Shown here: piece after piece, positions 4,982 to 54,121 of the stretch
Position numbering within the stretch: position 1 is the first letter of the stretch
Layout: each line of letters begins with the position of its first letter
Origin: an uncultured Gemmatimonadota bacterium
Lineage (GTDB): Bacteria > Gemmatimonadota > Gemmatimonadetes > Palauibacterales > Palauibacteraceae
Direction of reading: 5' to 3'
NCBI GenBank assembly: GCA_964465015.1
Contig: CAYXHP010000148.1
Span: 2,072-66,071, forward strand
DNA length: 64,000 bases
The notes under the pieces: model-generated
Seen by the model: only the letters and a program-made list of their open reading frames with translations
Databases searched by the model: none
Told to the model about the DNA's origin: nothing
Translations under genes and position numbers: made by a program

Positions 4982-5420
4982 GGGTGGTCCGGGGCGGTGG
5001 CGCGGTGGCGGCTTCCCCGGGCGGCAGCACGGCGGTGGCCTCGATCTCGATCACCGCTCCCTCGTCGACGAGGCCGGTGACCTCCACCACGGCCATGGCC
5101 GGGTAGTGCCGGCCCATGAGCTCGCGCCACGTGGCTCCGAGCGGCCCGAGGGAGGCCCGGTATTCGTCGAGGTCCGTCACGTAGACGGTCATGCGTCCGA
5201 TGTGGGTCGGCCCTCCGCCGGCCTCGCCGACGACCGCCAGGACGTGGGACAGGGCACCGCGAAACTGGGCGGCGAGCCCTTCGCCGCGGATGCGGCCGTC
5301 CGCATCCCGGTCCGTCTGTCCCGCCACGAACACGAGGCGTCCGCCCGCCGGGGCCACCAGACCGTTGTTCCAGCCGCGGGGCTCCCCGAGCGCCTCCGGG
5401 TTCACGATCCGGAAGCTCAC
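4965..5420 (-). CDS. ridA: RidA/YjgF/TdcF-family protein (reactive-intermediate enamine/imine deaminase). GTG start at 5420.
   Basis: VSFRIVNPEALGEPRGWNNGLVAPAGGRLVFVAGQTDRDADGRI...MTVYVTDLDEY...PAMAVVEVTGLVDEGAVIEIEATAVL. It has a ~19 aa Pro/Ala-rich C-terminal tail. GTGA overlap with the stop of the upstream SDR. Confidence 0.8.
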   Translation of the reverse strand: MSFRIVNPEALGEPRGWNNGLVAPAGGRLVFVAGQTDRDADGRIRGEGLAAQFRGALSHVLAVVGEAGGGPTHIGRMTVYVTDLDEYRASLGPLGATWRELMGRHYPAMAVVEVTGLVDEGAVIEIEATAVLPPGEAATAPPPRTTHGDGS

Positions 5421-6235
5421 GCGAGGAGCTCTCCGCCGTCCATCACGATCGCCTGGCCGTTGATGCCCCGGGCGCCCTCGCCGCACAGCCACAGCGCGGC
5501 GTCGGCCACCTCCTCCGGCTCGATGAGGCGGCCCTGGGGGTTCATGGCCACGATCGCCTGCATCGCCTCCTCCTGGGAACGTCCCGTCTTGAGGGCGACG
5601 TTTCGGGCCGAGGCCAACGTCATCTCCGTGCTCACGTAGCCCGGACACAGCGCGTTGACCGTGACGCCCCGGCCGGCCACCTCGGCGGCCGCGCAGCGCG
5701 CGAGGCCGAGCACCGCGTGCTTGGAAGCGGCGTACGCCGCGGTGTAGCGGGCCCCGGTCAGGCCGGCCACGGAGGCCACGTACACCAGCCGTCCCCAGCC
5801 GCGCTCGGCCATGGAGGGCAGGAAGGCCCGCGTGCACAGGAAGGAGCCGGTCGCGTTCACCTCCAGCACCCGGCGCCACTCCTCGAGCTCCAGGCTGCGG
5901 ATCGGCGCGGCGGAGGCGATCCCGGCGGCATGGACCAGGATGTCGGCCGGACCGAGCTCCGCCCCGGTTCTCTCGGCCAGGGCGCCGACCTGGACGGCGT
6001 CCGACACGTCGCACGGGACCGGGGTCGCGCGCCCCCCGGCGGCGCGGATCTCCTCCGCCACGGCCTCGATCTCGCTCGCGCTGCGGGCGCTCACCACGAC
6101 CGCCGCTCCCGCCGCGGCCAGCCGACGTGCGGCGGCCGCCCCGATCCCCCGTCCCCCACCGGTGACGACCGCGATGCGGCCCTCGAGCGGGGTGGCCGCG
6201 CCGCGGCCCGCTTCGGCGGCGCCACGGGCCGTCAC
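5417..6235 (-). CDS. SDR-family oxidoreductase (FabG-like), canonical active site. GTG start at 6235.
   Basis: Motifs RIAVVTGGGRGIGAA, NATGSF and YAASKHAV (YxxxK) ...CPGYVST. GTGA overlap with the creatininase-family stop. Confidence 0.85.
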   Translation of the reverse strand: MTARGAAEAGRGAATPLEGRIAVVTGGGRGIGAAAARRLAAAGAAVVVSARSASEIEAVAEEIRAAGGRATPVPCDVSDAVQVGALAERTGAELGPADILVHAAGIASAAPIRSLELEEWRRVLEVNATGSFLCTRAFLPSMAERGWGRLVYVASVAGLTGARYTAAYAASKHAVLGLARCAAAEVAGRGVTVNALCPGYVSTEMTLASARNVALKTGRSQEEAMQAIVAMNPQGRLIEPEEVADAALWLCGEGARGINGQAIVMDGGELLA

Positions 6236-9860: not shown

Positions 9861-10637
9861 CTATAGAAGGGACCGGATCCAGCCGCCGTCCACGGCGATC
9901 GAGCTCCCGGTGATGTAGGAAGCCCGCTCCGAGGCCAGGAAGGCGACCAGCGCCGCCAGCTCGCGCGGCTCACCGATTCGGCCCATGGGGATCTCGCGGT
10001 TCCAGTGCTCGAACGCATCCTCCGCCCCGTCCGATGTACCGGCCAGCTCCTCCAGGCGCGCCGTGCGCGTGTAGCCGGGCATCACGTTGTTCACCGTGAT
10101 CCCCTGCGCCGCCACGTCGTTGGCCAGCGTGCGCGCCAGCCCGGTCACCGCGGCCCGCAGGCTGTTGGACAGGATGAGGTTCTGGACCGGTTGCTTCACC
10201 GCGATGGACGTGATGGTGACGATCCGACCCCAGCGTCGCCCCTTCATGTCCGGGAGGACGCGCCGAACCATCTCGACCACGCTCTCGAGCAGGAGCCGCT
10301 CGGCGGCGCGCCACGTCTCGAGGTCGTGGGTCTCGAACGACCCGGCGGGGGGGCCGCCCGTGTTCGTGACCAGGATCTCCACCGGTCCGAAGGCCCGTTC
10401 GGCCCCCGAGACCGCCGCGTCGATGCCCGTGGTGGTGGAGAGATCGGCGGCCACGGCGGCCACCTCGGCACCCGTCTCGGAGGCGATCGCCGCCCGGGCC
10501 TCCTCCAGCCGCTCCTCCCCGCGGGCGCACAGCACCACCCGCGCGCCCTCGGCCGCCAGCTCGGCCGCCACCGCCCGGCCCAGGCCGCTGCTCGACCCGC
10601 CCACGAGCGCCACCCGTCCGGTCAGTCCCAGGTCCAT
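9861..10637 (-). CDS. SDR-fold oxidoreductase with a non-canonical active site
   Basis: It has the VALVGGSSSGLGRA Rossmann motif and NTGG. The YxxxK position reads S-N-S-L-R (ITSIAVKQPVQNLILSNSLRAAV), so the catalytic Tyr/Lys appear replaced by Ser/Arg. Confidence 0.75.
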   Translation of the reverse strand: MDLGLTGRVALVGGSSSGLGRAVAAELAAEGARVVLCARGEERLEEARAAIASETGAEVAAVAADLSTTTGIDAAVSGAERAFGPVEILVTNTGGPPAGSFETHDLETWRAAERLLLESVVEMVRRVLPDMKGRRWGRIVTITSIAVKQPVQNLILSNSLRAAVTGLARTLANDVAAQGITVNNVMPGYTRTARLEELAGTSDGAEDAFEHWNREIPMGRIGEPRELAALVAFLASERASYITGSSIAVDGGWIRSLL

Positions 10638-11196: not shown

Positions 11197-11997
11197 TCAG
11201 GTCGAGTCGCTCTCCTCCCAGTATCGGGTGCTCGTGGCGGGAGCCCAGCGGGCGGGATCGAACAGGGCGGGGTCCAGAGTGTCCGGGGCCCGGATGTCCG
11301 AGTACTCCTCGGTCTGGAACAGCCGGCCGTCCACCCGCAGGTCCAGGTGCGTCTCTACCCAGCCGTCGCCGAGGGGCTGCCAACCGCCGATCGTCGCGTC
11401 CAGGAGCCTTCCGTCGCCGAGAGGCTGGATGTCGCGCACCGCCAGGAGCCGGTCCGCGTCGACCCAGAACTGGGGGGACGTCGTGTCCCCCGCCGCGGCT
11501 CCCACGATCCACACCGGACGGCCCTCGAGCGTGTCCCGCCGGGCCAAGGACAGGTCGATCCCCAGGCTGTCCAGCACGTGGGCCGAGCGCTCGACCGGCT
11601 GCAGGTAGACATCCGAGAGCAGCACGGCGAGCGGATTGGTGTCGGAGGCCGAGTCTGCCAGCTGGCCGGACCTGAACCCGTACCGCTGGCCGTCCACGTA
11701 GAGAACCCCGTTGCCCTCGGCCAGGGGCTCCATGTCGATGCGGAGCTTCCCGAGCGCCAGCGCCTCGTGCCAGAGCGTCGTGTCCTGGACCCCGGGCTTC
11801 GGGTATCGGATGGTCCGCTGCGTGAACGTCACGTAGGGAGGCCAGTGCCCCTGGTAGAGGTCGTGCATGGCCTGGAGCACCTCGTGGCCGCTGCGGAAGC
11901 TCCGGCCGGGGGGCGACCCGTCATCCGAGCCGCAGGCCGAGGTCACGGCGAGCGCGGCGGCGACGAGGACGGACGCGGCGGCGGCGGGACGATGCAT
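11197..11997 (-). CDS. Hypothetical lipoprotein
   Basis: Signal peptide followed by LAVTSAC|GSDD (lipobox-like). No recognisable catalytic motif. Confidence 0.55.
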   Translation of the reverse strand: MHRPAAAASVLVAAALAVTSACGSDDGSPPGRSFRSGHEVLQAMHDLYQGHWPPYVTFTQRTIRYPKPGVQDTTLWHEALALGKLRIDMEPLAEGNGVLYVDGQRYGFRSGQLADSASDTNPLAVLLSDVYLQPVERSAHVLDSLGIDLSLARRDTLEGRPVWIVGAAAGDTTSPQFWVDADRLLAVRDIQPLGDGRLLDATIGGWQPLGDGWVETHLDLRVDGRLFQTEEYSDIRAPDTLDPALFDPARWAPATSTRYWEESDST

Positions 11998-12287
11998 CGG
12001 TGCCTCTCGGGCTCGGGGGCCGGGGGACGGCGTCCGGATCCCGGCATCCTAAGTCCCGGGCTCTCCGTGTCAATCGTCCGCGAGTCCGGGTCGGCGGATG
12101 GAGAGGTCGATGGGGTCGATTTTTCCCGGGGTCGGGGAATGGGAGGGCGGGCCGATCGGGCGCCGCGCGCGGAAGCGACGTGGCAAGGGGGCTGGACGGC
12201 CCGGATCCCCGTGCTAGATTTCCGCGCTCGATCCGCGCGGGCCCCGCTCCGGGAGCCCCTGTCTTCTCTTTCAGGAGACGACCTCCC

Positions 12288-12995
12288 ATGAAGGCCAGTG
12301 ACATCCGCCGCGGGCACGTGTTGCTCGTGGACGGCGCGCCGTGTCGGGTGATGGAGTTCCAGCACCGCACGCCCGGCAACCTGCGCGCCTTCGTCCAGGT
12401 CCGGCTGCGGGGCCTGCTCTCGGGGAAGAGCTTCGACCAGCGGTTCAGCGCCACGCAGTCGGTCCAGGAAGTGCGGGTGGAATCCCGTCCGATGCAGGCG
12501 CTCTACCGCGACGCGGCCGGACTGCACGCCATGGACTCGGGGACGTACGAGGAGCACGTGCTCGACGACGAGACCGTGGGTGAACTGGGCAGCTGGCTGG
12601 AGCCCGGCGCCATGTTCTCGGTGGAGTGGCTGGAGGGGCGGGCGATCGGGGTCGAGCCTCCCGCCGCGGTGGAGGCGCAGGTGGTGGAGACCGCGCCCGT
12701 GGTCCGCGGGGCTACCAAGACGGCGAGCACCAAGCCGGCCCGGCTGGACAACGGGGCCACGGTGCAGGTGCCGGAGTTCGTCGGGGTGGGGGACCGCATC
12801 CGGGCCCGACCCCTGGACGGCACCTACCTGGAGCGCGCCTGGCGGGGGCCCACATACCGGTATGATCTCGTGCGAGCAGTGTCGCCGCGCCCGACGCCGT
12901 CCAGTGTCGGGATGTGCACTTTTTGCAGGTACGTGGACCGACCTCGGCCCCCCGGGTGGATGTGCACTGCGGACGATGTCCCTATCTTAGTCTAA
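12288..12995 (+). CDS. efp: Elongation factor P with an atypical ~50 aa C-terminal extension. The canonical end would be near 12850.
   Basis: MKASDIRRGHVLLVDGAPCRVMEFQHRTPGNLRAFVQVRLRGLLSGKSFDQRF...VQVPEFVGVGDRIRARPLDGTYLERA. An RBS (AGGAGA) lies 10 nt upstream. The in-frame stop is only at 12993..12995. Confidence 0.85.
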   Translation: MKASDIRRGHVLLVDGAPCRVMEFQHRTPGNLRAFVQVRLRGLLSGKSFDQRFSATQSVQEVRVESRPMQALYRDAAGLHAMDSGTYEEHVLDDETVGELGSWLEPGAMFSVEWLEGRAIGVEPPAAVEAQVVETAPVVRGATKTASTKPARLDNGATVQVPEFVGVGDRIRARPLDGTYLERAWRGPTYRYDLVRAVSPRPTPSSVGMCTFCRYVDRPRPPGWMCTADDVPILV

Positions 12996-13199
12996 TGACA
13001 CCAACGGGTTGAGGTCGACGGAAACTCACCCGGACAACCGCTGCCGATCCCCGGCACGTTGGCTGCACGGGCAGACGGTAGTTCAGGGGAACGGGCGCTT
13101 CCCGGCCGACGGGTCGGGGAACCCTCGCGACGGGGGCCGGAAGCCCAATCGGGCGGCCGGCCCCCGTCTGCTTGCACCGTGCTTCCCTCGCTTCCCGCT

Positions 13200-14945
13200 T
13201 CAGCCGGCGCTGTCCGCGCCGGTGTCCTGGCCTCCCCCCGTGACCTTCAGGTCCGCCGTCCGGCGGAACGTGGGCGGCCGACGTACCTTGGTGGCCTGCT
13301 CGAACGCGTATGCCAGCTTGAGGAGTGTGGGCTCGCTCCAGGCCCGGCCCACGAACGAGAAGCCGACCGGCAGCCCGAAGACGTAGCCGGCGGGCACCGT
13401 GATGTGGGGGTAGCCGGCCACAGCGGCGGGCGAGGTGAAGCTCCCGCCGGCGCCGACGTCGCCGTTCACGAGGTCGATCAGCCATGGCGGGCCGGACGTC
13501 GGGGCCACCAGCGCGTCGAGCCGGTGCGCGTCCATGACCTTGTCGATTCCCTCGGTCCGGGTGAGCCGGTGGTTCTTCTCGAGCGCCTTGCGGTAGGCGG
13601 CCTCGGTGAGTGGCCCCTTCTTCTGGGCTTGCAGCATGATGTCCTGGCCGAAGTAGGGCATCTCGCGGCCGGCGTGGGCCCGGTTGAAGGCGATCACGTC
13701 GGCCAGCGAGCGCACCGGCGCGCCCGGCCCGAGCTCCGTCAGGTACTTGTCGAGGTCCGCCTTGAACTCGTACAGGAGGACGTCGAACTCGGAGTCTCCC
13801 CACTTTCCGGCCGTGGCGATGTCGGCGGGGTCGACGAGCACCGCGCCCGCGTTCTTCAGGACCCGCAGCGCGTTCTCGGCGATCGCGTCGGCGTGGGGGT
13901 TGTAGCCGAAGTAGTGGCTCCGGGCCACGCCGATGCGGGCGCCCTTCAGCCCGGCGGGATCGAGGAAGCGCGTGTAGTCCTTCTCTACGTGGCCGCCGGC
14001 CGCCGCCGTGGCCGGGTCCCGGGGGTCGGGCCCCGCCATGGCGCCGAGCAGGAGGGCCGCGTCCCTCACCGTCCGCGCCATCGGCCCGGCCGTGTCCTGG
14101 CTGTGGGCGATGGGGACGATCCCGGCGCGGCTCACCAGCCCGAGCGTGGGCTTGATCCCGACCAGGGAGCTGGCGTTGGAGGGACAGGTCACCGACCCAT
14201 CGGTCTCGGTCCCGACCGCGACCGTGCAGAAGCTGGCCGAGGCGGCGGCCCCCGATCCCGAGCTCGAGCCGCACGGGGTGCGATCGATGGCGTACGGGTT
14301 CCGGCCCTGTCCCCCGCGGCCGCTCCATCCGCTCGAGGAATGGGAGGAGCGGAAGTTGGCCCACTCGCTGAGGTTGGTCTTCCCGAGCAGGATGGCGCCC
14401 GCGTCCCGCAGGCGCGCAGCCAGGTGGGCATCGCGCGGGACCTTCGCCCCGACCAGCGCCAGGGAGCCCGCCGCGCTCTCCATGCGATCGTCCGTGGCGA
14501 TGTTGTCCTTGAGGAGCACCGGGATCCCGTGCAGCGGCCCCCTCGCCCCCTTCGACTTGCGCTCGGCATCCAGCCGGTCGGCGATGTCGAGCGCTGCGGG
14601 ATTGGTCTGCAGCACCTGCGCCAGACGGGGGCCCTTCCCGTCCAGGGCGTCGATGCGCTCGAGGTAGGCCTCCGTGAGACCGCGCGCCGTGAGGCTCCCT
14701 TCCTCCATGCGCTTTTGGAGGTCGGTGATCGTCGCCTCCTCGTACTCGAAGGCCGGGATGTCGAAATCGGCCTCGCCGCCCTCCCCGCGCCGGGCGTCGC
14801 TCCGCTCCGCGTCCTGTCCGGCACAGGCCAGGGCGGCCGGTCCGGCGGCCACGGCCAGCCCTCCCACCGCCGCGTCGCGGAGGAAGTGCCGGCGGGTCAG
14901 CGGTCTCGAAGGCGTAGCCTCGACCTCGGGACGATGGTCTCCCAT
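13200..14945 (-). CDS. Amidase (amidase-signature family), Tat-secreted
   Basis: ATG at 14945 (MGDHRPEV...). It has an SRPLTRRHFLRDAAVGG twin-arginine motif and the GSSSGSGAA (GGSSGG-type) signature. The 777-aa and 727-aa ORFs on the track here are junk frames. Confidence 0.85.
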   Translation of the reverse strand: MGDHRPEVEATPSRPLTRRHFLRDAAVGGLAVAAGPAALACAGQDAERSDARRGEGGEADFDIPAFEYEEATITDLQKRMEEGSLTARGLTEAYLERIDALDGKGPRLAQVLQTNPAALDIADRLDAERKSKGARGPLHGIPVLLKDNIATDDRMESAAGSLALVGAKVPRDAHLAARLRDAGAILLGKTNLSEWANFRSSHSSSGWSGRGGQGRNPYAIDRTPCGSSSGSGAAASASFCTVAVGTETDGSVTCPSNASSLVGIKPTLGLVSRAGIVPIAHSQDTAGPMARTVRDAALLLGAMAGPDPRDPATAAAGGHVEKDYTRFLDPAGLKGARIGVARSHYFGYNPHADAIAENALRVLKNAGAVLVDPADIATAGKWGDSEFDVLLYEFKADLDKYLTELGPGAPVRSLADVIAFNRAHAGREMPYFGQDIMLQAQKKGPLTEAAYRKALEKNHRLTRTEGIDKVMDAHRLDALVAPTSGPPWLIDLVNGDVGAGGSFTSPAAVAGYPHITVPAGYVFGLPVGFSFVGRAWSEPTLLKLAYAFEQATKVRRPPTFRRTADLKVTGGGQDTGADSAG

Positions 14946-25470: not shown

Positions 25471-26169
25471 CGCAGCAGCTCGGCGAGGGGATGGACGGCG
25501 TAGCCCGCTGCGGACAGGTCGGCCAGGATTCCCGGGAGCGCCTCGGCCGTCTGGGTCCGATCGCCGTCCGGGTCGTATCCGTCGCCGTCATGGAGGAGCA
25601 GGATCGTCCCGGGCTTCACGCGGCGCCGCACCCGGCGCCGAATCTCCTCGGCCCCGGGCCGATCCGTGTCCCACACCCCCACGCTCCACCCCACCAGGGG
25701 ACAACCCAGTCCGCGCAGCGTCCGATCCACGAAGGGGTTCCGGTGTCCGTGGGGCGCCCTGAACGCCACCGGCGCGACGCCCGCGGCGTCCTCGACGGCC
25801 CGGTGTCCCGACTCGATCTCCTCCCGGACGGCAGCTGGTCCCATGAGGGTGAGCTTGCGGTGCGAGAAGGTGTGGCTCCCGACCAGGTGGCCGCCCGCGG
25901 CCACCTCCCTCGCCAGGTCCGGGAAGGCCTGGGCGTGCCGTCCGACCAGGAAGAAGGCGGCCGGGGCACCAGCCGCCGCCAGCGCGTCCAGGACGGCGGG
26001 AGTGGTGGCGCGGTTCGGGCCATCGTCGAAGGTGAGGTAGACCCGCCGTCCGTCCGCGGGGCCCCGTCCGAGGACGGGCCCGAACAGTCGGGCGTTGGGG
26101 AGGAGCGCGCCCGCCGCCAGGCTCCCCGCGCCCGCCAGGCCGACCGCGCCGGCCACGAGGCCGATCATG
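25467..26169 (-). CDS. Polysaccharide deacetylase (NodB homology / CE4)
   Basis: ATG at 26169 (MIGLVAGAV...). VYLTFDDGPN...FFLVGRH...GHLVGSHTFSHRKL...RAPHGHRNP...LLHDG. ATGA overlap with the GT4 stop. Confidence 0.8.
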
Positions 26170-27280
26170 CCAGCACCCGACGGTAGATGCCGAGTACCCG
26201 GGCCGCGACGTCGGGCCAGGCGAACTCGCAGGCATGGTCCAGCGCCCGCGAGCGCATCCGCGCCCGGCGATGCGCGTCGCCCAACAGGTCGAGGATGGCC
26301 TCGGCCCAGGCGCCCGGATCGGCCGGCTCCAGGAGGTGGCCGGCCCCCGAGCCGCCGAGGACGAACCGGTGTCCGGCCAGGTCCGAGGCCACCACCGGGG
26401 CTCCGCAGGCCATCGCCTCGAGCAGCGTGATGCCGAAGGAGGCGCGCCGGGTGGGGGCCAGGTAGAGATCGCACGTGCCGTAGTATTCCGGCCTCTCCTC
26501 GTACACCAGCCCCACGAACCGGACGCCGTCGGCCAGCGGGGCCGCCTGCCGCTCGTAGTGGGCCCGGAGCGGTCCGTCTCCGACCACGGTCAGCGTGGCG
26601 CCCGGATAGGCTTCGATGACGGCCGGCATCGCCGTCAGCAGCGTCTCGAGGCCGTTGCGCGGGTCGAGTCGTCCCAGGAAGAGGAGACGCGGCGGATCCC
26701 CGGGGCCGAGCGGACCCGGATGGCGGCCGTTGGGATGGAAATACCCGACGTCGACGCCGTTCGGCACCACGTCGAACTCGGCCGCGAAGTAGCGCGACAG
26801 CGCCTCGACCACCGTCGGGCTCACCGCGATGCGCGCCGCCATGCTCGCCAACCGGCGCTGGAGCGGCGCCTGGAACACGCGGTAGCCCACCGAGCGCGGA
26901 AACCAGGAGTGGAAGGTGCTGACCACGGGGAGCCCCAGGTCGTCGGCGGCCGTCTGGCCCACGAGCCCGAGCGTCGGGGCCAGCGGGCCGTGCAGGTGGA
27001 CCAGGTCGATGGCCTCTTCCCGGAACAGGCGCCGGAGCCCGGCCCGGAGGCGCCAGCCGATGGCCACCCGGGCGAAGGCTCCGTTGCTGAACACCACCTG
27101 GCTCCGGCCCACGCGGCGGACGCCGGTCTCGTCCGGGTCCTGGCCGGTCATGCGGGCGGTGACGATGAGGGCTTCGTGGCCCAGTCGACCGAGCTCGCGC
27201 TGTAGCGCCTGCACGTGCTCGGTGACCCCCCCGAGGTGGGGATGGTAGTATTCGGTGACCAGCGCGACGCGCATGCGTGT
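26165..27280 (-). CDS. GT4-family glycosyltransferase (PimA/MshA-like, retaining). Alternative start at 27292.
   Basis: MRVALVTEYYHPHLGGVTEHV...LLFLGRLDPRNGLETLL...LEAMACGAPVVASDLAGH. Confidence 0.8.
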   Translation of the reverse strand, partial: TRMRVALVTEYYHPHLGGVTEHVQALQRELGRLGHEALIVTARMTGQDPDETGVRRVGRSQVVFSNGAFARVAIGWRLRAGLRRLFREEAIDLVHLHGPLAPTLGLVGQTAADDLGLPVVSTFHSWFPRSVGYRVFQAPLQRRLASMAARIAVSPTVVEALSRYFAAEFDVVPNGVDVGYFHPNGRHPGPLGPGDPPRLLFLGRLDPRNGLETLLTAMPAVIEAYPGATLTVVGDGPLRAHYERQAAPLADGVRFVGLVYEERPEYYGTCDLYLAPTRRASFGITLLEAMACGAPVVASDLAGHRFVLGGSGAGHLLEPADPGAWAEAILDLLGDAHRRARMRSRALDHACEFAWPDVAARVLGIYRRVLA

Positions 27281-27548
27281 CCCCATCTCGCGGACCGCCG
27301 GGGCGGGCATCGCCCTGCGCGAGACGGGATCTCCGGCCCGCGCACTCCACGGCGTCCGGGCCGCGGCAGCGACGATTACAGTTGTAGACGGTACTCGTTT
27401 ACCCGTGCGCGAGCGCGAGTTCCATGTCGGGTTCGGGCCCGAGGGCGTGGGCGGACGGCGCCGGGCGGGTCGTCCCCTTACCTTCCACGTTCGGGCGCCC
27501 TCTGACGCGGGGTGATTCGCCGACGCACGAGCCGGACGGGAGGGCGAC

Positions 27549-30074
27549 ATGACGGGGCGATCGGGGAGCGAGGAAGGCCGCCCTGGCTTGCGCTCCCTCG
27601 CGAGCGCGGTGCGCGGCATCGTGGTCCTGGCGGCCGTCGTCCTGGCGACGGGGCCGGTCGTGGCGCAGGGGACCGGGACCCCGGGAGCGGGGGTCCCCGA
27701 CTGGCGCGTCAACCAGGCCTTCCAGCGCTCGCACGATTTCGACCTCCTGCACCAGGACATCGCCCTTCGGTCGTTCGACTGGGATTCCACCTCCCTGGCC
27801 GGCCGCGTGGAGACGACCCTGCGCGCCCTGCGACCCGGTTTCGACTCGGTCGTGCTCGATGCTGGATCGGGCCTGCGGGTGAAGAGGGTGTGGACGCCGG
27901 ACGGCGACTCGCTGCGCTGGACCCACACCGGTGACACGCTGGTCGTGTTCCCGTCCGAGCCGCTCGGCTTCGGGGACACGCTGCGGTTCCGGGTCGACTA
28001 CCGGGCCACGGTGCGGAGCGGACACGGGCTCACCTTCCTCGACAGCGCCGCCGACCATCCGCGTCAGATCTGGAGCCAGGGGGAATCCCACAACAACCAC
28101 CTGTGGTTCCCGACGTACGACTTCCCCGACGACAAGATGACGTGGACGCTCGCTGCCACCGTCCCGGACGGGTTCACGGCGGTTTCGAACGGCCGCGAGC
28201 TGGGGGATCGCGACGAGGGCGATGGAACGCACACGGTGACCTGGAGCGAGCCGCATCCCGCGTCCACCTACCTCGTGTCGCTGGTGGTCTCGCGGCTCGT
28301 TCGACTGCGGGACGACTGGAGGGGGACGCCGGTCGACTACTACGTGTACGCGTCCGACACGACGGCGGGTCGCCGGCTGTTCCGCGTCACGCCCGACATG
28401 ATCGAGGCGTACTCGCGGCTCACCGGAATCCCGTACCCGTGGTCCAAGTACGCACAGATCACGGTGGCCGACTTCTTCGGGGGCATGGAGAACGTCACGG
28501 CCACGACCCTGGTGGACTGGCTCCCGGACGAGCGCGCCTACCGCGACGACCCCTGGTACCTCATCGACCTCATCCCGCACGAGCTCGCCCACATGTGGTT
28601 CGGCGACTACGTGACCACGGCGGACTGGGCCAATCTCTGGCTCAACGAGGGCTTCGCGGAGTTCATGCCGGGCCAGTACTGGGCGCGTGCGAGAGGGGAG
28701 GAGGCGGCGGAGACCTACTACCTGCACGAGTACGATGACTTCCTCCACGCGGACGCGCAGCGGCGCGTCCCGCTCGCCGCCCCCAGCTCCAACGTGATCT
28801 ACCCCAAGGGCGCCCTCGTCCTCCGCATGCTCGAGAAGCTGCTGGGTCCCGATCGCTTCTGGGCCTCGATTCACCGGTACCTGGCTCGACACGCCTACGG
28901 GAACGCGACCACCGAGGACCTGCGGCGCGCGATCCTGGCGGCCACCGGCCAGAACCTGGACTGGTTCTTCGACCAGTGGATCTACTCGGGCGGCTATCCC
29001 GAGCTCGCCGTCCGCGCGCACTGGGACTCCGCCGGCCGAAGCCTGGCGCTGGTGGTCCGGCAGCTGCAGGCCGACTCGGCCGATTCGACCCGGGCGCGGG
29101 TGACTCCGGCGGTCTTCCGGATGCCGGTCACGGTCCGGGTGTCCACCGCCGCCGGGCCCATCACCCGGCGTGTGGTCGTGGACCGGGCGGTGGACACGGT
29201 CCTCGTGCGACAGGTGATGGCCCGGCCGACGGCGGTCGTGTTCGACGACCGGGACGAGGTCGTGAAGCGTCTCGACTTCCCGCAGCCGACCTCGTGGCTG
29301 GCCACCGAGCTGGAGGGGAGCGGCGCGCTCTGGAACCGCCGGTGGGCGGCCGAGCGGCTCGGAGAGCGCACCGAGGACACGGCCGCGGCCTCGGCGCTGG
29401 CCACGACGCTCGCGGGGGGCGGACCGCCGGCCCTGCGGGCGGCGGCGGCCGGCGCGCTGTCGAGCTTTCCGGCCATCCGCGCGCTTCCCGCCCTCCGCGT
29501 GGCGCTGGGGGACAGCTCGGCCCGCGTCCGCACGGCCGCGGCCTCGGCACTCGCCGGCGTGGGCGGCACGGAGGCCGCCGGCCTGGCGCGGCACGCCTTC
29601 GAGACCGACTCGAGCTATCACGTGCGAGCGGCGGCGCTGGAGGCCTACGCCGCCATCGACTCCGCCGACTCCGTCGCCGTGCACCAGGCGCTGGGTCGGG
29701 GCCTCCACACGCCCTCGTATCGGGGCGCCATCGCCCAGGCGGCGATGATCGGCATCGTGGCCCGCAGGGACACGAGCTTCGTGAACGACCTGGAGGGGAT
29801 GCTCCCCCGGGACGAGCTGGCGGCGCAGGCGCTCGGGGCCCTGGGGGCGCGCGGGGACCGCCGGGCGCTCGGCGTGCTGGCCGTGCACCTCGAGGATCCC
29901 GACCGCGGCGTTCGGCGCGCCGTCCTGAGGGCGTTCGGCACCATCGTCCCGCCGGCTGCCGCCGTGGCGGCGCTGGAGTCGGTCCGGAACGGTCTCACCG
30001 ACCCGGACGTGGAGCGCGCGGTCGACGAGCTGGTCCGGCGGCTGCGAGCCCGGGGGGGGGACGCCGGTGGGTGA
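27549..30074 (+). CDS. M1-family zinc aminopeptidase (aminopeptidase N-like), secreted, with C-terminal HEAT-like repeats
   Basis: Signal peptide. GAMEN-like motif FFGGMEN. HELAHMWFGDYVT...WLNEGFAEF (HExxH..E). The C-terminal ~250 aa is Ala-rich and repeat-like. Confidence 0.85.
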   Translation: MTGRSGSEEGRPGLRSLASAVRGIVVLAAVVLATGPVVAQGTGTPGAGVPDWRVNQAFQRSHDFDLLHQDIALRSFDWDSTSLAGRVETTLRALRPGFDSVVLDAGSGLRVKRVWTPDGDSLRWTHTGDTLVVFPSEPLGFGDTLRFRVDYRATVRSGHGLTFLDSAADHPRQIWSQGESHNNHLWFPTYDFPDDKMTWTLAATVPDGFTAVSNGRELGDRDEGDGTHTVTWSEPHPASTYLVSLVVSRLVRLRDDWRGTPVDYYVYASDTTAGRRLFRVTPDMIEAYSRLTGIPYPWSKYAQITVADFFGGMENVTATTLVDWLPDERAYRDDPWYLIDLIPHELAHMWFGDYVTTADWANLWLNEGFAEFMPGQYWARARGEEAAETYYLHEYDDFLHADAQRRVPLAAPSSNVIYPKGALVLRMLEKLLGPDRFWASIHRYLARHAYGNATTEDLRRAILAATGQNLDWFFDQWIYSGGYPELAVRAHWDSAGRSLALVVRQLQADSADSTRARVTPAVFRMPVTVRVSTAAGPITRRVVVDRAVDTVLVRQVMARPTAVVFDDRDEVVKRLDFPQPTSWLATELEGSGALWNRRWAAERLGERTEDTAAASALATTLAGGGPPALRAAAAGALSSFPAIRALPALRVALGDSSARVRTAAASALAGVGGTEAAGLARHAFETDSSYHVRAAALEAYAAIDSADSVAVHQALGRGLHTPSYRGAIAQAAMIGIVARRDTSFVNDLEGMLPRDELAAQALGALGARGDRRALGVLAVHLEDPDRGVRRAVLRAFGTIVPPAAAVAALESVRNGLTDPDVERAVDELVRRLRARGGDAGG

Positions 30075-52579: not shown

Positions 52580-53143
52580 GTGCCGTTCGAAGCGGTGAGT
52601 TTCGTCCCATCGCGGATGTTCCTTACGTCCGGCGTGGGGATCCACAGGGAGCGACTCTCCTCGTTCGAGATGGCCCTTCGGGATGCACGGATCGCCCGCT
52701 ACAACCTGGTCGGGGTCTCCTCCATCTTCCCTCCCCATTGCGAAATGGTGGACGTGGAGGAGGGGCTCGATCGACTCCAGCCGGGACAGATCGTGTTCTC
52801 CGTCATGGCTCGCTCCGAGACCAACGAGCCCAGCCGCCTCATCGCCTCGAGCATCGGCCTGGCGATCCCCAAGAACCCGGAGCAGTTCGGGTATCTCTCC
52901 GAGCACCACAGCTACGGTGAGACGGCCGGCCACGCCGGGAATTACGCGGAGGACCTCGCCGCCAGCATGCTCGCCACCGTGCTCGGGATACCGTTCGACC
53001 CCGACGCCGCCTGGGACGAGCAGCGCCAGGTTTGGAGCCTCTCCGACCAGATCGTGAGGACCACGAACATCACGGCGGCGGTCGAGGGCCCGGACGATGG
53101 GCGCTGGGCGACCGTCGTCTCGGCCGCCATCTTCTGTGGCTGA
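52580..53143 (+). CDS. pdaD: Pyruvoyl-dependent arginine decarboxylase (archaeal/chlamydial PdaD/AaxB type)
   Basis: NLVGVSSIFPP contains the Ser-Ser self-cleavage site that generates the pyruvoyl group. About 187 aa. Confidence 0.75.
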   Translation: MPFEAVSFVPSRMFLTSGVGIHRERLSSFEMALRDARIARYNLVGVSSIFPPHCEMVDVEEGLDRLQPGQIVFSVMARSETNEPSRLIASSIGLAIPKNPEQFGYLSEHHSYGETAGHAGNYAEDLAASMLATVLGIPFDPDAAWDEQRQVWSLSDQIVRTTNITAAVEGPDDGRWATVVSAAIFCG

Positions 53144-53146
53144 TCG

Positions 53147-54121
53147 TTGACCTCGGCCCGCTGTCCCTTCCCCGTGGAGCTCTCCGGCCTGTCGTGGACC
53201 ACGGGAGAGAACTTCATGGGCCACGGGGCCGATGCTCCCGATTGGAACGCCGCGCGCGCCGTGGTCCTGCCGGTACCCTACGAGGCCACGACCAGCTACG
53301 GGGCCGGGACGAAGGAGGGTCCGGGGGCGATCCTGTCCGCGTCCCGCTACGTGGAGCTGTACGACGAGGAGCTGGACGCCGAGCCGTGGAAGGCCGGGAT
53401 CTGCACGCTTCCCTACCTGGAGCTTCCCGGCTCGGGTCCCGAGGAGGCGGTGCGGACGCTGCGGGAGGCGTACACCCGTCTCCTGGGCGTATCCGCGGAC
53501 CGCTTCGTCGTCATGCTCGGCGGCGAACACTCGATCACGAGCGCCCCGGTGCACGCCTGGCTGGATCGGCTGGGCGGAGAGCTGTCGGTCCTGCAGCTCG
53601 ATGCCCATTCCGACCTGCGGGAGAGCTACCACGACACGCCGTGGAGCCACGCGTGCGTGATGCGGCGCGTGCTGGACCGGACCTCGCGGATCACGGCCGT
53701 CGGCATCCGGTCGCTCACGGGGGAGGAGCGCCGGCTCATCCGGGACGTGGGAATCACCACGATCTTCGCCGAGGAACTGCGGGACGATGGCTGGGTCGAG
53801 CGGGCGCTGGACAGTCTCGGGCCCAACGTGTACGTGACGTTCGATGTCGACTTCTTCGACCCCGCGCTCCTGCCGGCCACGGGAACGCCCGAGCCGGGAG
53901 GCGGGAGCTGGTGGGATGCGCTGGACCTGCTGCGGGCCGTATTCCGGGAGCGGAACGTCGTCGGCGCCGACATCGTCGAGCTCGCGCCCGGGCTCGGCTC
54001 GCACTCCTCCGGCGTGGTGGCCGCGAAGCTGGCCTACAAGATGATCGGCTACCGCTTCCCGGAGGCCGGGGCCGCCGTGACGGCAGACGCCGAGGGAGCT
54101 CCCCCGGCGGGCACGGATTGA
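53147..54121 (+). CDS. speB: Agmatinase (arginase-fold ureohydrolase)
   Basis: MLGGEHSIT...LDAHSDL...VTFDVDFFDPA...GGGSWWD...VGADIVELAP. Confidence 0.8.
   Translation: MTSARCPFPVELSGLSWTTGENFMGHGADAPDWNAARAVVLPVPYEATTSYGAGTKEGPGAILSASRYVELYDEELDAEPWKAGICTLPYLELPGSGPEEAVRTLREAYTRLLGVSADRFVVMLGGEHSITSAPVHAWLDRLGGELSVLQLDAHSDLRESYHDTPWSHACVMRRVLDRTSRITAVGIRSLTGEERRLIRDVGITTIFAEELRDDGWVERALDSLGPNVYVTFDVDFFDPALLPATGTPEPGGGSWWDALDLLRAVFRERNVVGADIVELAPGLGSHSSGVVAAKLAYKMIGYRFPEAGAAVTADAEGAPPAGTD

What the first reader, a model, noticed from the sequence alone, without database searches (positions are those of the whole stretch)
12288..12995. EF-P with an Asn at the modification-loop tip and a ~50-residue C-terminal extension encoded by low-GC DNA
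Aligning the beta3-beta4 loop (FQHRTPGNLRAF) with K34-type (KPGKGQAF) and R32-type (KSGRNAA) EF-Ps puts Asn at the tip position. This suggests an unmodified EF-P subtype, with no EpmA/EarP-like gene nearby. After the canonical end (...TYLERA), the frame stays open for ~48 more codons through DNA of clearly lower GC (cacataccggtatgatctcgtgcgag...). It stops only at 12993..12995 TAA. That is either a real appended tail or an indel/frameshift that removed the natural stop. A +2 frame stop (gta tga) lies at ~12879..12884 (reading gcg cgc ctg ... ccg gta tga).
Basis: seen in the sequence. Interest (0 to 1): 0.5.

Follow-up and report, generated by a model that had tools for sequence, protein, structure and literature searches.

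The report
Asn-type EF-P with stop-loss tail
This is an ordinary translation factor gene (EF-P) of a known but uncharacterised class with asparagine at its active loop tip, and its extra 51-residue tail is most likely former untranslated DNA read through after this lineage lost the stop codon.

Summary
Both observations are real. The ORF 12288..12995 encodes 235 aa. Residues 1-184 are a complete three-domain EF-P, and Asn31 aligns without gaps onto the modified Lys of solved EF-Ps.

The Asn tip is not new. Volkwein et al. 2019 catalogued P32/N34 EF-Ps as 2.2% of EF-Ps, with function untested. The loop HRTPGNLRAF is identical in all the related EF-P loci I fetched from GTDB genomes (80) and in the near relatives from metagenomes, spanning Gemmatimonadales, Acidobacteriota, Opitutaceae and other groups.

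The tail is private to this lineage. Every related ORF that is complete in its contig is 184-188 aa. The two nearest orthologues (78-80% identity) read GCC TGA where the window reads GCC TGG. Gapped alignment suggests a 15-19 nt deletion that fused TG to a conserved GCGGGGGCC motif.

The tail looks like non-coding DNA:
- GC3 is 0.73 against 0.94 in the core.
- Its codon-adaptation value equals off-frame sequence.
- It has no meaningful homologue among 1.84 billion proteins.
- AlphaFold2 pLDDT is below 50.
- It overlaps a terminator-like hairpin and T-run.

A 51-codon open run after stop loss is expected by chance about one time in three. A second assembly that differs by 4 SNPs keeps the same allele, so a plain assembly error is unlikely.

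No EpmA/B/C, EarP or DHS gene lies in the 64 kb. Low interest.

The parts
12273..12277 (+). Shine-Dalgarno-like AGGAG, 10 nt upstream of the efp ATG
   Evidence: Read directly from the sequence. All orthologues start MKA[ST]DIRRG at the same ATG.
12288..12839 (+). efp core: 184 codons encoding a complete three-domain EF-P that ends ...GTYLERA
   Evidence: Pfam EFP_N, EFP and Elong-fact-P_C. NCBIfam PRK00529 scores 185 bits against a cut-off of 161. It is 78-80% identical to 184-aa orthologues. pLDDT is about 90. GC3 is 0.94 and the CAI-like value is 0.80.
12363..12392 (+). Codons for the beta3-beta4 loop decapeptide HRTPGNLRAF. The Asn31 codon AAC at 12378..12380 occupies the position of the modified Lys34 of E. 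coli EF-P.
   Evidence: Gapless alignment to solved EF-Ps. The decapeptide is identical in the 80 GTDB loci and in the near relatives from metagenomes that reach it. The loop lies between strands 17-27 and 35-42 in the model.
12840..12842 (+). TGG (Trp185) at the position of the ancestral TGA stop codon
   Evidence: L001 reads GAG CGC GCC TGA and L086 reads GAG AGG GCC TGA. Gapped alignment favours a 19-nt deletion relative to L001, or 15-nt relative to L086: TG[A...]GCGGGGGCC.
12840..12995 (+). 51-codon read-through tail plus TAA stop: former 3' untranslated region, now in frame
   Evidence: GC3 is 0.725. The CAI-like value is 0.365, lower than all 345 genic 51-codon windows of this contig and equal to the off-frame median of 0.36. 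A search of 1.84 billion proteins gave no hit below E of about 1e-4. pLDDT is below 50 for residues 187-235. No complete orthologue ORF carries it.
12890..12924 (+). Terminator-like element inside the tail: an 8-bp hairpin (CCCGACGC / GTGTCGGG), then ATGTGCAC, then TTTTT
   Evidence: RNA fold and terminator scan. In L001 the homologous GGGTGTGCATTCTTTTC is the 3' arm and U-tract of a more canonical hairpin terminator about 30-60 nt after the stop. The assignment as a terminator is inferred, not shown.
13129..13168 (.). Strong GC-rich hairpin between the convergent efp and amidase genes, probably a bidirectional terminator
   Evidence: Inverted repeat with 18-nt arms. The fold of 13075..13185 gives -70.9 kcal/mol with z = -4.5. 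An equivalent hairpin with different sequence occurs in L001, z = -3.6.

Best explanation
The gene is efp of an uncultured Gemmatimonadales bacterium. Its first 184 codons encode a complete EF-P of the known Pro32/Asn34 ('Asn-type') class with the loop HRTPGNLRAF. [quoted passage not shown] That step is inferred from the family and was not tested here.

The 51-residue tail is not part of the protein's design. In this lineage the ancestral TGA directly after Ala184 was destroyed. The most likely cause is a 15-19 nt deletion that joined TG to the G of a conserved 3'-UTR motif GCGGGGGCC. A simple A-to-G change is the alternative. The frame now runs through the former 3' UTR, including a terminator-like hairpin and T-run, until the first chance in-frame stop at 12993.

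If translated, the tail is a disordered appendage that is neutral or mildly harmful. EF-P function resides in the core.
For: - All homologues with complete ORFs are 184-188 aa. They end ...YLERA(K) in the near relatives, and in equivalent C-termini such as ...YLGRA or ...YLSRA in the distant ones. Of the 120 best of 1,300 hits, only the window's own protein covers the tail. The 80 GTDB loci and the metagenome loci agree.
- The nearest orthologues have TGA at the exact codon that is TGG here.
- Gapped alignment recovers a shared GCGGGGGCC(C) motif immediately after the junction. A shared 10-mer arises in 1.6% of shuffles.
- Relative to L001, the tail region differs by indels that are not multiples of three.
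- The tail has non-coding composition: GC3 0.725 against 0.94, and a CAI-like value of 0.365 against 0.80. This is below all 345 genic windows and equal to off-frame sequence.
- The tail alone has no credible homologue among 1.84e9 representative proteins.
- AlphaFold2 gives pLDDT below 50 for residues 187-235, while the core is at about 90.
- A 51-codon open run is expected in about 33% of such stop losses.
- A second assembly (Logan, SRR8556254) differs by 4 SNPs in 4,275 bp. Two of them are synonymous changes in efp. It carries the same TGG and the same tail.
Against: - No read-level data could be inspected. Both assemblies might draw on the same or related read sets.
- The junction lies next to a G5 run.
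- No closer relative than 80% protein identity exists in the collections searched, so the event cannot be dated and the deletion cannot be told from a substitution with certainty.
- Nothing here shows whether the tail is actually translated, or whether the mRNA ends before the TAA.
Confidence: 0.8

Rival explanations
1. Sequencing or consensus artefact of a metagenome-assembled genome. The real genome has the stop after Ala184 and the tail does not exist.
For: The source is evidently an uncultured-organism assembly; all relatives are MAGs. The junction TGGCGGGGGCC abuts a G-run. The protein is a singleton cluster.
Against: An independently built contig (Logan, SRR8556254) differs from the window at 4 positions yet has the identical TGG and tail. 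A 15-19 nt deletion or a base substitution is not a typical homopolymer error.
Confidence: 0.1
2. The tail is a real, selected C-terminal addition that gives this EF-P a new property. Examples would be an extra ribosome or RNA contact from a basic tail, or self-regulation through its own PPG stall motif at residues 221-223.
For: The frame is open for 51 codons. The tail has net charge of about +3 and contains RPRPPG. Two haplotypes keep it.
Against: - It is unique among all homologues examined.
- It has non-coding codon usage, no homologues and no confident structure.
- It overlaps 3'-UTR elements conserved as non-coding in the sister species.
- The open frame is expected by chance.
Confidence: 0.03
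3. efp is beginning to decay as a pseudogene because another EF-P or EfpL paralogue elsewhere in the genome carries the function.
For: Stop loss is a common first lesion. About 11% of bacteria carry two efp copies (PMC11388002).
Against: The 184-codon core is intact and keeps every column that is invariant in the family alignments. It has gene-like GC3 and CAI. The two SNPs between haplotypes in efp are synonymous. There is no second efp in the 64 kb.
Confidence: 0.05

Closest known systems
Pro32/Asn34 ('Asn-type') EF-Ps catalogued by Volkwein et al. 2019 (PMC6544042), e.g. Opitutus terrae WP_012375392.1 and Acidobacterium capsulatum WP_015897933.1
   Same: Pro two residues before an Asn at the loop tip in a gapless seven-residue loop. 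No EpmA, EpmC, EarP or YmfI. The same phyla (Acidobacteriota, Verrucomicrobiota) share the identical HRTPGNLRAF loop with this gene.
   Different: This copy has a private 51-residue read-through tail. The four Asn-type example genomes I could read in that dataset are DHS-positive, whereas no DHS gene lies in this 64 kb and the rest of the genome is unknown. Gemmatimonadetes were not in that dataset.
Canonical Lys-type EF-P (E. coli K34 with EpmA/B/C; solved structures 1yby, 3tre, 6rk3, 3a5z, 6enj)
   Same: Three-domain architecture, length of the core, loop length and Pro-Gly before the tip.
   Different: The loop is RTPGNLR instead of VKPGKGx: Asn replaces Lys, Leu replaces the conserved Gly, and Arg flanks both sides. 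K34N was inactive in E. coli EF-P (PMC6544042), so this class must work through a different loop chemistry or an unknown modification.
EfpL/YeiP and the PGKGP subfamily (EF-Ps known to work unmodified)
   Same: Possible function without a known modification enzyme.
   Different: The NCBIfam EfpL models score 100 and 90 bits against cut-offs of 216 and 264. There is no loop extension and no Arg tip. There is no PGKGP motif.
Stop-codon-loss (non-stop) extensions into the 3' UTR, a common class of mutation
   Same: The stop codon is destroyed and the frame continues to the next chance stop. The tail has non-coding composition and no homologues.
   Different: Nothing notable. It happens to affect a universally conserved translation factor.

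Membership tests
Bacterial elongation factor P (EF-P; PRK00529 / TIGR00038) | Three domains: KOW-like EFP_N, OB EFP, Elong-fact-P_C | tested here: met
   Pfam E-values are 1.6e-17, 1.1e-09 and 2e-18, covering residues 2-183. Solved EF-Ps match at E = 2e-32.
Bacterial elongation factor P (EF-P; PRK00529 / TIGR00038) | Score above the curated NCBIfam cut-off | tested here: met
   PRK00529 (subfamily) scores 185 bits against 161. The TIGR00038 equivalog scores 183.9 against 185.8, just below its cut-off.
Bacterial elongation factor P (EF-P; PRK00529 / TIGR00038) | Protein of about 185 aa that ends shortly after the last strand of domain III | tested here: not met
   The ORF is 235 aa. All complete orthologue ORFs are 184-188 aa. 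The deviation is explained by loss of the stop codon.
Bacterial elongation factor P (EF-P; PRK00529 / TIGR00038) | Rescue of polyproline-stalled ribosomes | not testable with these tools
   This needs a genetic or biochemical assay.
Pro32/Asn34 EF-P class (Volkwein et al. 2019) | Asn at the loop-tip position and Pro at -2 in a gapless alignment with E. coli-type EF-P | tested here: met
   TPGNL aligns on KPGKG without gaps. Asn31 is central in the modelled loop.
Pro32/Asn34 EF-P class (Volkwein et al. 2019) | Genome lacks EpmA/EpmC/EarP/YmfI but has a DHS-like gene (the co-occurrence reported for this class) | tested here: inconclusive
   Pfam scans of about 55 genes found no tRNA-synt_2/EpmA, EpmC, EarP or DS domain in the 64 kb. 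No such gene recurs beside efp in the related loci. The whole genome is not available.
EfpL / YeiP | Score above the EfpL equivalog cut-off; extended loop with an Arg tip | tested here: not met
   PRK04542 scores 100 bits against 216, and TIGR02178 scores 90 against 264. The loop has canonical length and an Asn tip.
PGKGP unmodified EF-P subfamily | Palindromic Pro-Gly-Lys-Gly-Pro loop | tested here: not met
   The loop is Thr-Pro-Gly-Asn-Leu-Arg.

The most novel reading that the evidence does not exclude
The decapeptide HRTPGNLRAF is identical in every fetched EF-P of this class, from several phyla, while the rest of the protein falls to about 38% identity. The motif was one of the two search patterns, so this sample is partly biased. 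One reading is that this constraint marks a mechanism not yet described. It could be an undiscovered modification of Asn31 or a flanking Arg by an unlinked enzyme. It could instead be a modification-free mode in which Arg27 and Arg33 replace the long modified Lys. This window would then be one more member of an uncharacterised EF-P activation class. Separately, and much less likely (about 3%), the tail with its own PPG motif could make EF-P synthesis depend on EF-P activity.
Probability: 0.2. Interest if true: 0.6.

Novelty: new member of a known kind. Interest (0 to 1): 0.15.

Why it matters
It matters little on its own. The tail is a private stop-loss read-through and should not be annotated or interpreted as a new EF-P domain.

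The gene adds Gemmatimonadales to the phyla that carry the Asn-type EF-P, whose loop is extremely conserved. How that class is activated is still unknown. A 2026 review states that about half of bacterial EF-P types fall outside the known modification classes (PMC13602936). That open question belongs to the whole class, not to this locus.

Tried and rejected
- Rfam scan of 11500..14000 at E <= 1 found nothing, so the low-GC stretch hides no known RNA.
- The tail alone against 1.84e9 proteins gave only three marginal, multi-stretch hits at E of about 1e-4, none of them an EF-P.
- I looked for a conserved neighbour of Asn-type efp that could be a modifying enzyme. All-against-all clustering of ORFs in the flanks of 82 loci found no gene shared across phyla. 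The recurrent neighbours are proline dehydrogenase, a xylose-isomerase-like TIM barrel, DUF72, nitroreductase, glyoxalase, a PALP enzyme, a PBP and a histidine kinase.
- Pfam annotation of the window found no EpmA/B/C, EarP or DHS. The two SDRs (5420..6235, 9861..10637) share only the ubiquitous SDR fold with YmfI. The GT4 glycosyltransferase (26168..27979) sits in an envelope cluster.
- A metagenome scan for closer relatives, or for any contig encoding the tail, found none. The best hit was 78% identical and the tail pattern GWMCTADD had no EF-P hit.
- My first impression that the loop is two residues longer than in E. coli was wrong. It came from anchoring on the wrong 'EF', and the alignment is gapless.
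- The supplement of PMC11388002 is not held.

Full report
**What is in the sequence.** The ORF on the + strand runs from ATG 12288 to TAA 12993..12995 and encodes 235 aa. An AGGAG lies 10 nt upstream of the ATG. Pfam finds the three EF-P domains over residues 2-183. NCBIfam's EF-P subfamily model PRK00529 scores 185 bits against a cut-off of 161. The EfpL/YeiP models score far below their cut-offs. No second efp-like sequence lies in the window.

**The loop.** HMMER alignments to solved EF-Ps (1yby, 3tre, 6rk3, 6rji) are gapless through the beta3-beta4 loop. EFQHRTPGNLRAFV pairs with EFQHVKPGKGAAFV, so Asn31 sits on the modified Lys and Pro29 on Pro32. In an AlphaFold2 model with core pLDDT of about 90, the loop 28-34 connects strands 17-27 and 35-42, with Asn31 in the middle.

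The Asn tip is not new. Volkwein et al. 2019 (PMC6544042) found Asn at this position in 2.23% of 1,166 EF-Ps, always with Pro32. They showed that K34N inactivates E. coli EF-P. They also noted a deoxyhypusine-synthase-like gene in such genomes. In their Dataset S1 the Asn-type rows I could read are Opitutus, Methylacidiphilum, Acidobacterium and Isosphaera. All four are EpmA-, EpmC-, EarP-, YmfI- and DHS+. Sieber et al. 2024 also list Asn among the tip residues. A 2026 review still regards about half of EF-P types as having unknown modification status.

**How widespread the loop is.** They come from Gemmatimonadales, Acidobacteriota (Terriglobia, Blastocatellia, Thermoanaerobaculia), Opitutaceae and other Verrucomicrobiota, Sumerlaeaceae, Phycisphaeraceae and Bacteroidia. 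All carry HRTPGNLRAF unchanged, while overall identity to the query falls to about 38%. Part of this uniformity is by construction, because HRTPGNLRA was one of the two search patterns. The metagenome loci were found through other peptides. There, the near relatives again have this loop, and a more distant group has ITPGRWKAM instead.

**The tail is private to this lineage.** Among the 120 best of 1,300 homologues, only the window's own protein (P0001) covers 100% of the query. All others cover 78%. Every related ORF that is complete in its contig, from GTDB or metagenomes, is 184-188 aa. The near relatives end ...YLERA or ...YLERAK, and the distant ones have equivalent endings such as ...YLGRA or ...YLSRA.

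The two nearest orthologues are P0002 (80% identity) and P0003 (78%). They read GAG CGC GCC TGA and GAG AGG GCC TGA where the window reads GAG CGC GCC TGG.

A gapped alignment places a 19-nt gap relative to L001, or a 15-nt gap relative to L086, directly after TG. It then recovers a shared GCGGGGGCC(C) motif. A shared 10-mer arises in only 1.6% of shuffles. The stop was therefore most likely removed by a small deletion that fused TG to G. A plain A-to-G transition cannot be excluded. Further along, the tail region differs from L001 by indels of 4 and 22 nt, which is how non-coding DNA evolves.

**The tail looks like non-coding DNA.**
- GC1/2/3 is flat at 0.59/0.63/0.73, against 0.75/0.48/0.94 in the core.
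- A codon-adaptation index built from the window's own genes gives 0.80 for the core and 0.365 for the tail. None of 345 genic 51-codon windows is that low, and the off-frame median is 0.36.
- The tail alone, searched against 1.84 billion representative proteins, gave three marginal hits at E of about 1e-4 and no EF-P.
- AlphaFold2 gives pLDDT below 50 for residues 187-235.
- With the local composition, a stop-free run of 51 codons occurs in about 33% of trials, so the open frame carries no information.

**What the tail DNA was before.** In the sister species (L001) the stop is followed by two hairpins, the second ending in AUUCUUUUC. This looks like an intrinsic terminator.

The window keeps the homologous GGGATGTGCACTTTTT. 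It has an 8-bp hairpin at 12890..12911, followed by a T5 run at 12920..12924. These folds do not differ from shuffles in energy (z of about 0.2-0.5), so the terminator assignment is an inference.

A much stronger hairpin at 13129..13168 lies between efp and the convergent amidase gene. It has z = -4.5, and an equivalent hairpin occurs in L001. It is the likely shared terminator.

If transcripts end at the T-run, the extended ORF would have no stop codon on the mRNA. This is speculation and needs 3'-end mapping.

**Artefact or real allele.** The same 235-aa product is encoded on a Logan contig assembled from SRR8556254. That contig differs from the window at 4 of 4,275 positions. Two of the differences are synonymous changes within efp. 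It has the identical TGG and tail. This argues against a one-off assembly error. I could not inspect reads, and the two assemblies may derive from related samples, so I keep about 10% for an artefact.

**Modification enzymes.** I called about 57 genes by GC3 and scanned nearly all of them with Pfam. Synteny with L001 covers the four genes between 7098 and 11035, which I did not scan here. There is no EpmA (tRNA-synt_2), EpmB, EpmC, EarP or DS domain.

Nearby genes are a Pfam-less 266-aa lipoprotein-like ORF (divergent), an amidase (convergent), and an ECF sigma / anti-sigma / DUF4097 cluster. A pyruvoyl arginine decarboxylase and an agmatinase (52580..54121) show a putrescine route about 40 kb away, but this is not evidence of EF-P modification.

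Across 82 loci no neighbour is conserved between phyla. 'No modifier nearby' is confirmed. 'Unmodified' is not.

**Verdict.** The Asn-type loop places the gene in a known, functionally uncharacterised EF-P class. The C-terminal extension is best explained as a lineage-specific stop-codon loss that reads into the 3' UTR (confidence about 0.8). It is not a new EF-P architecture. Interest is low. The only open question of substance is how Asn-type EF-Ps are activated, and that belongs to the whole class and was already posed in the literature.

Noticed in passing
window 13084..13118: A 35-nt block, CAGGGGAACGGGCGCTTCCCGGCCGACGGGTCGGG, lies in the efp-amidase intergenic region. It is nearly identical in the sister species L001, although the surrounding spacer has diverged. 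It is unique in the window, and nowhere else among the fetched loci did the gapped pattern match apart from L005, which is the window's own locus. Rfam finds nothing. Its function is unknown.
   Followed up: partly
window 12910..12920 and 12958..12968: An exact 11-nt direct repeat, GGATGTGCACT, occurs twice 48 nt apart inside the read-through tail. It produces the repeated peptide M-C-T. One copy is conserved in L001 as GGGTGTGCATT. It could be a protein-binding site or chance.
   Followed up: partly
L094..L102 (metagenome contigs), EF-P loop: A different EF-P family, about 39% identical, has the loop ITPGRWKAM. It combines Pro at -2 with Arg at the tip, a combination reported as rare (2.3% of Arg-type EF-Ps in PMC6544042).
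   Followed up: no
window 52580..54121: Adjacent genes for a pyruvoyl-dependent arginine decarboxylase (PF01862) and an arginase-family agmatinase (PF00491), giving an arginine-to-putrescine route. No deoxyhypusine or homospermidine synthase lies next to them.
   Followed up: partly
window 11197..11997 (- strand): A 266-aa ORF with a lipoprotein-like N-terminus (…AVTSACGSDDG) and no Pfam family. It is conserved as the divergent upstream neighbour of efp in L001 and L002.
   Followed up: no
window 12948..12956 (tail residues 221-223): The read-through tail contains RPRPPGW. This includes a Pro-Pro-Gly motif, the kind of sequence whose translation normally depends on EF-P itself.
   Followed up: no
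P0038, P0058, P0059, P0087, P0102, P0104, P0105: Several database EF-Ps of this family are listed as 195-222 aa because of N-terminal extensions. These do not align with each other and look like mis-called start codons.
   Followed up: no
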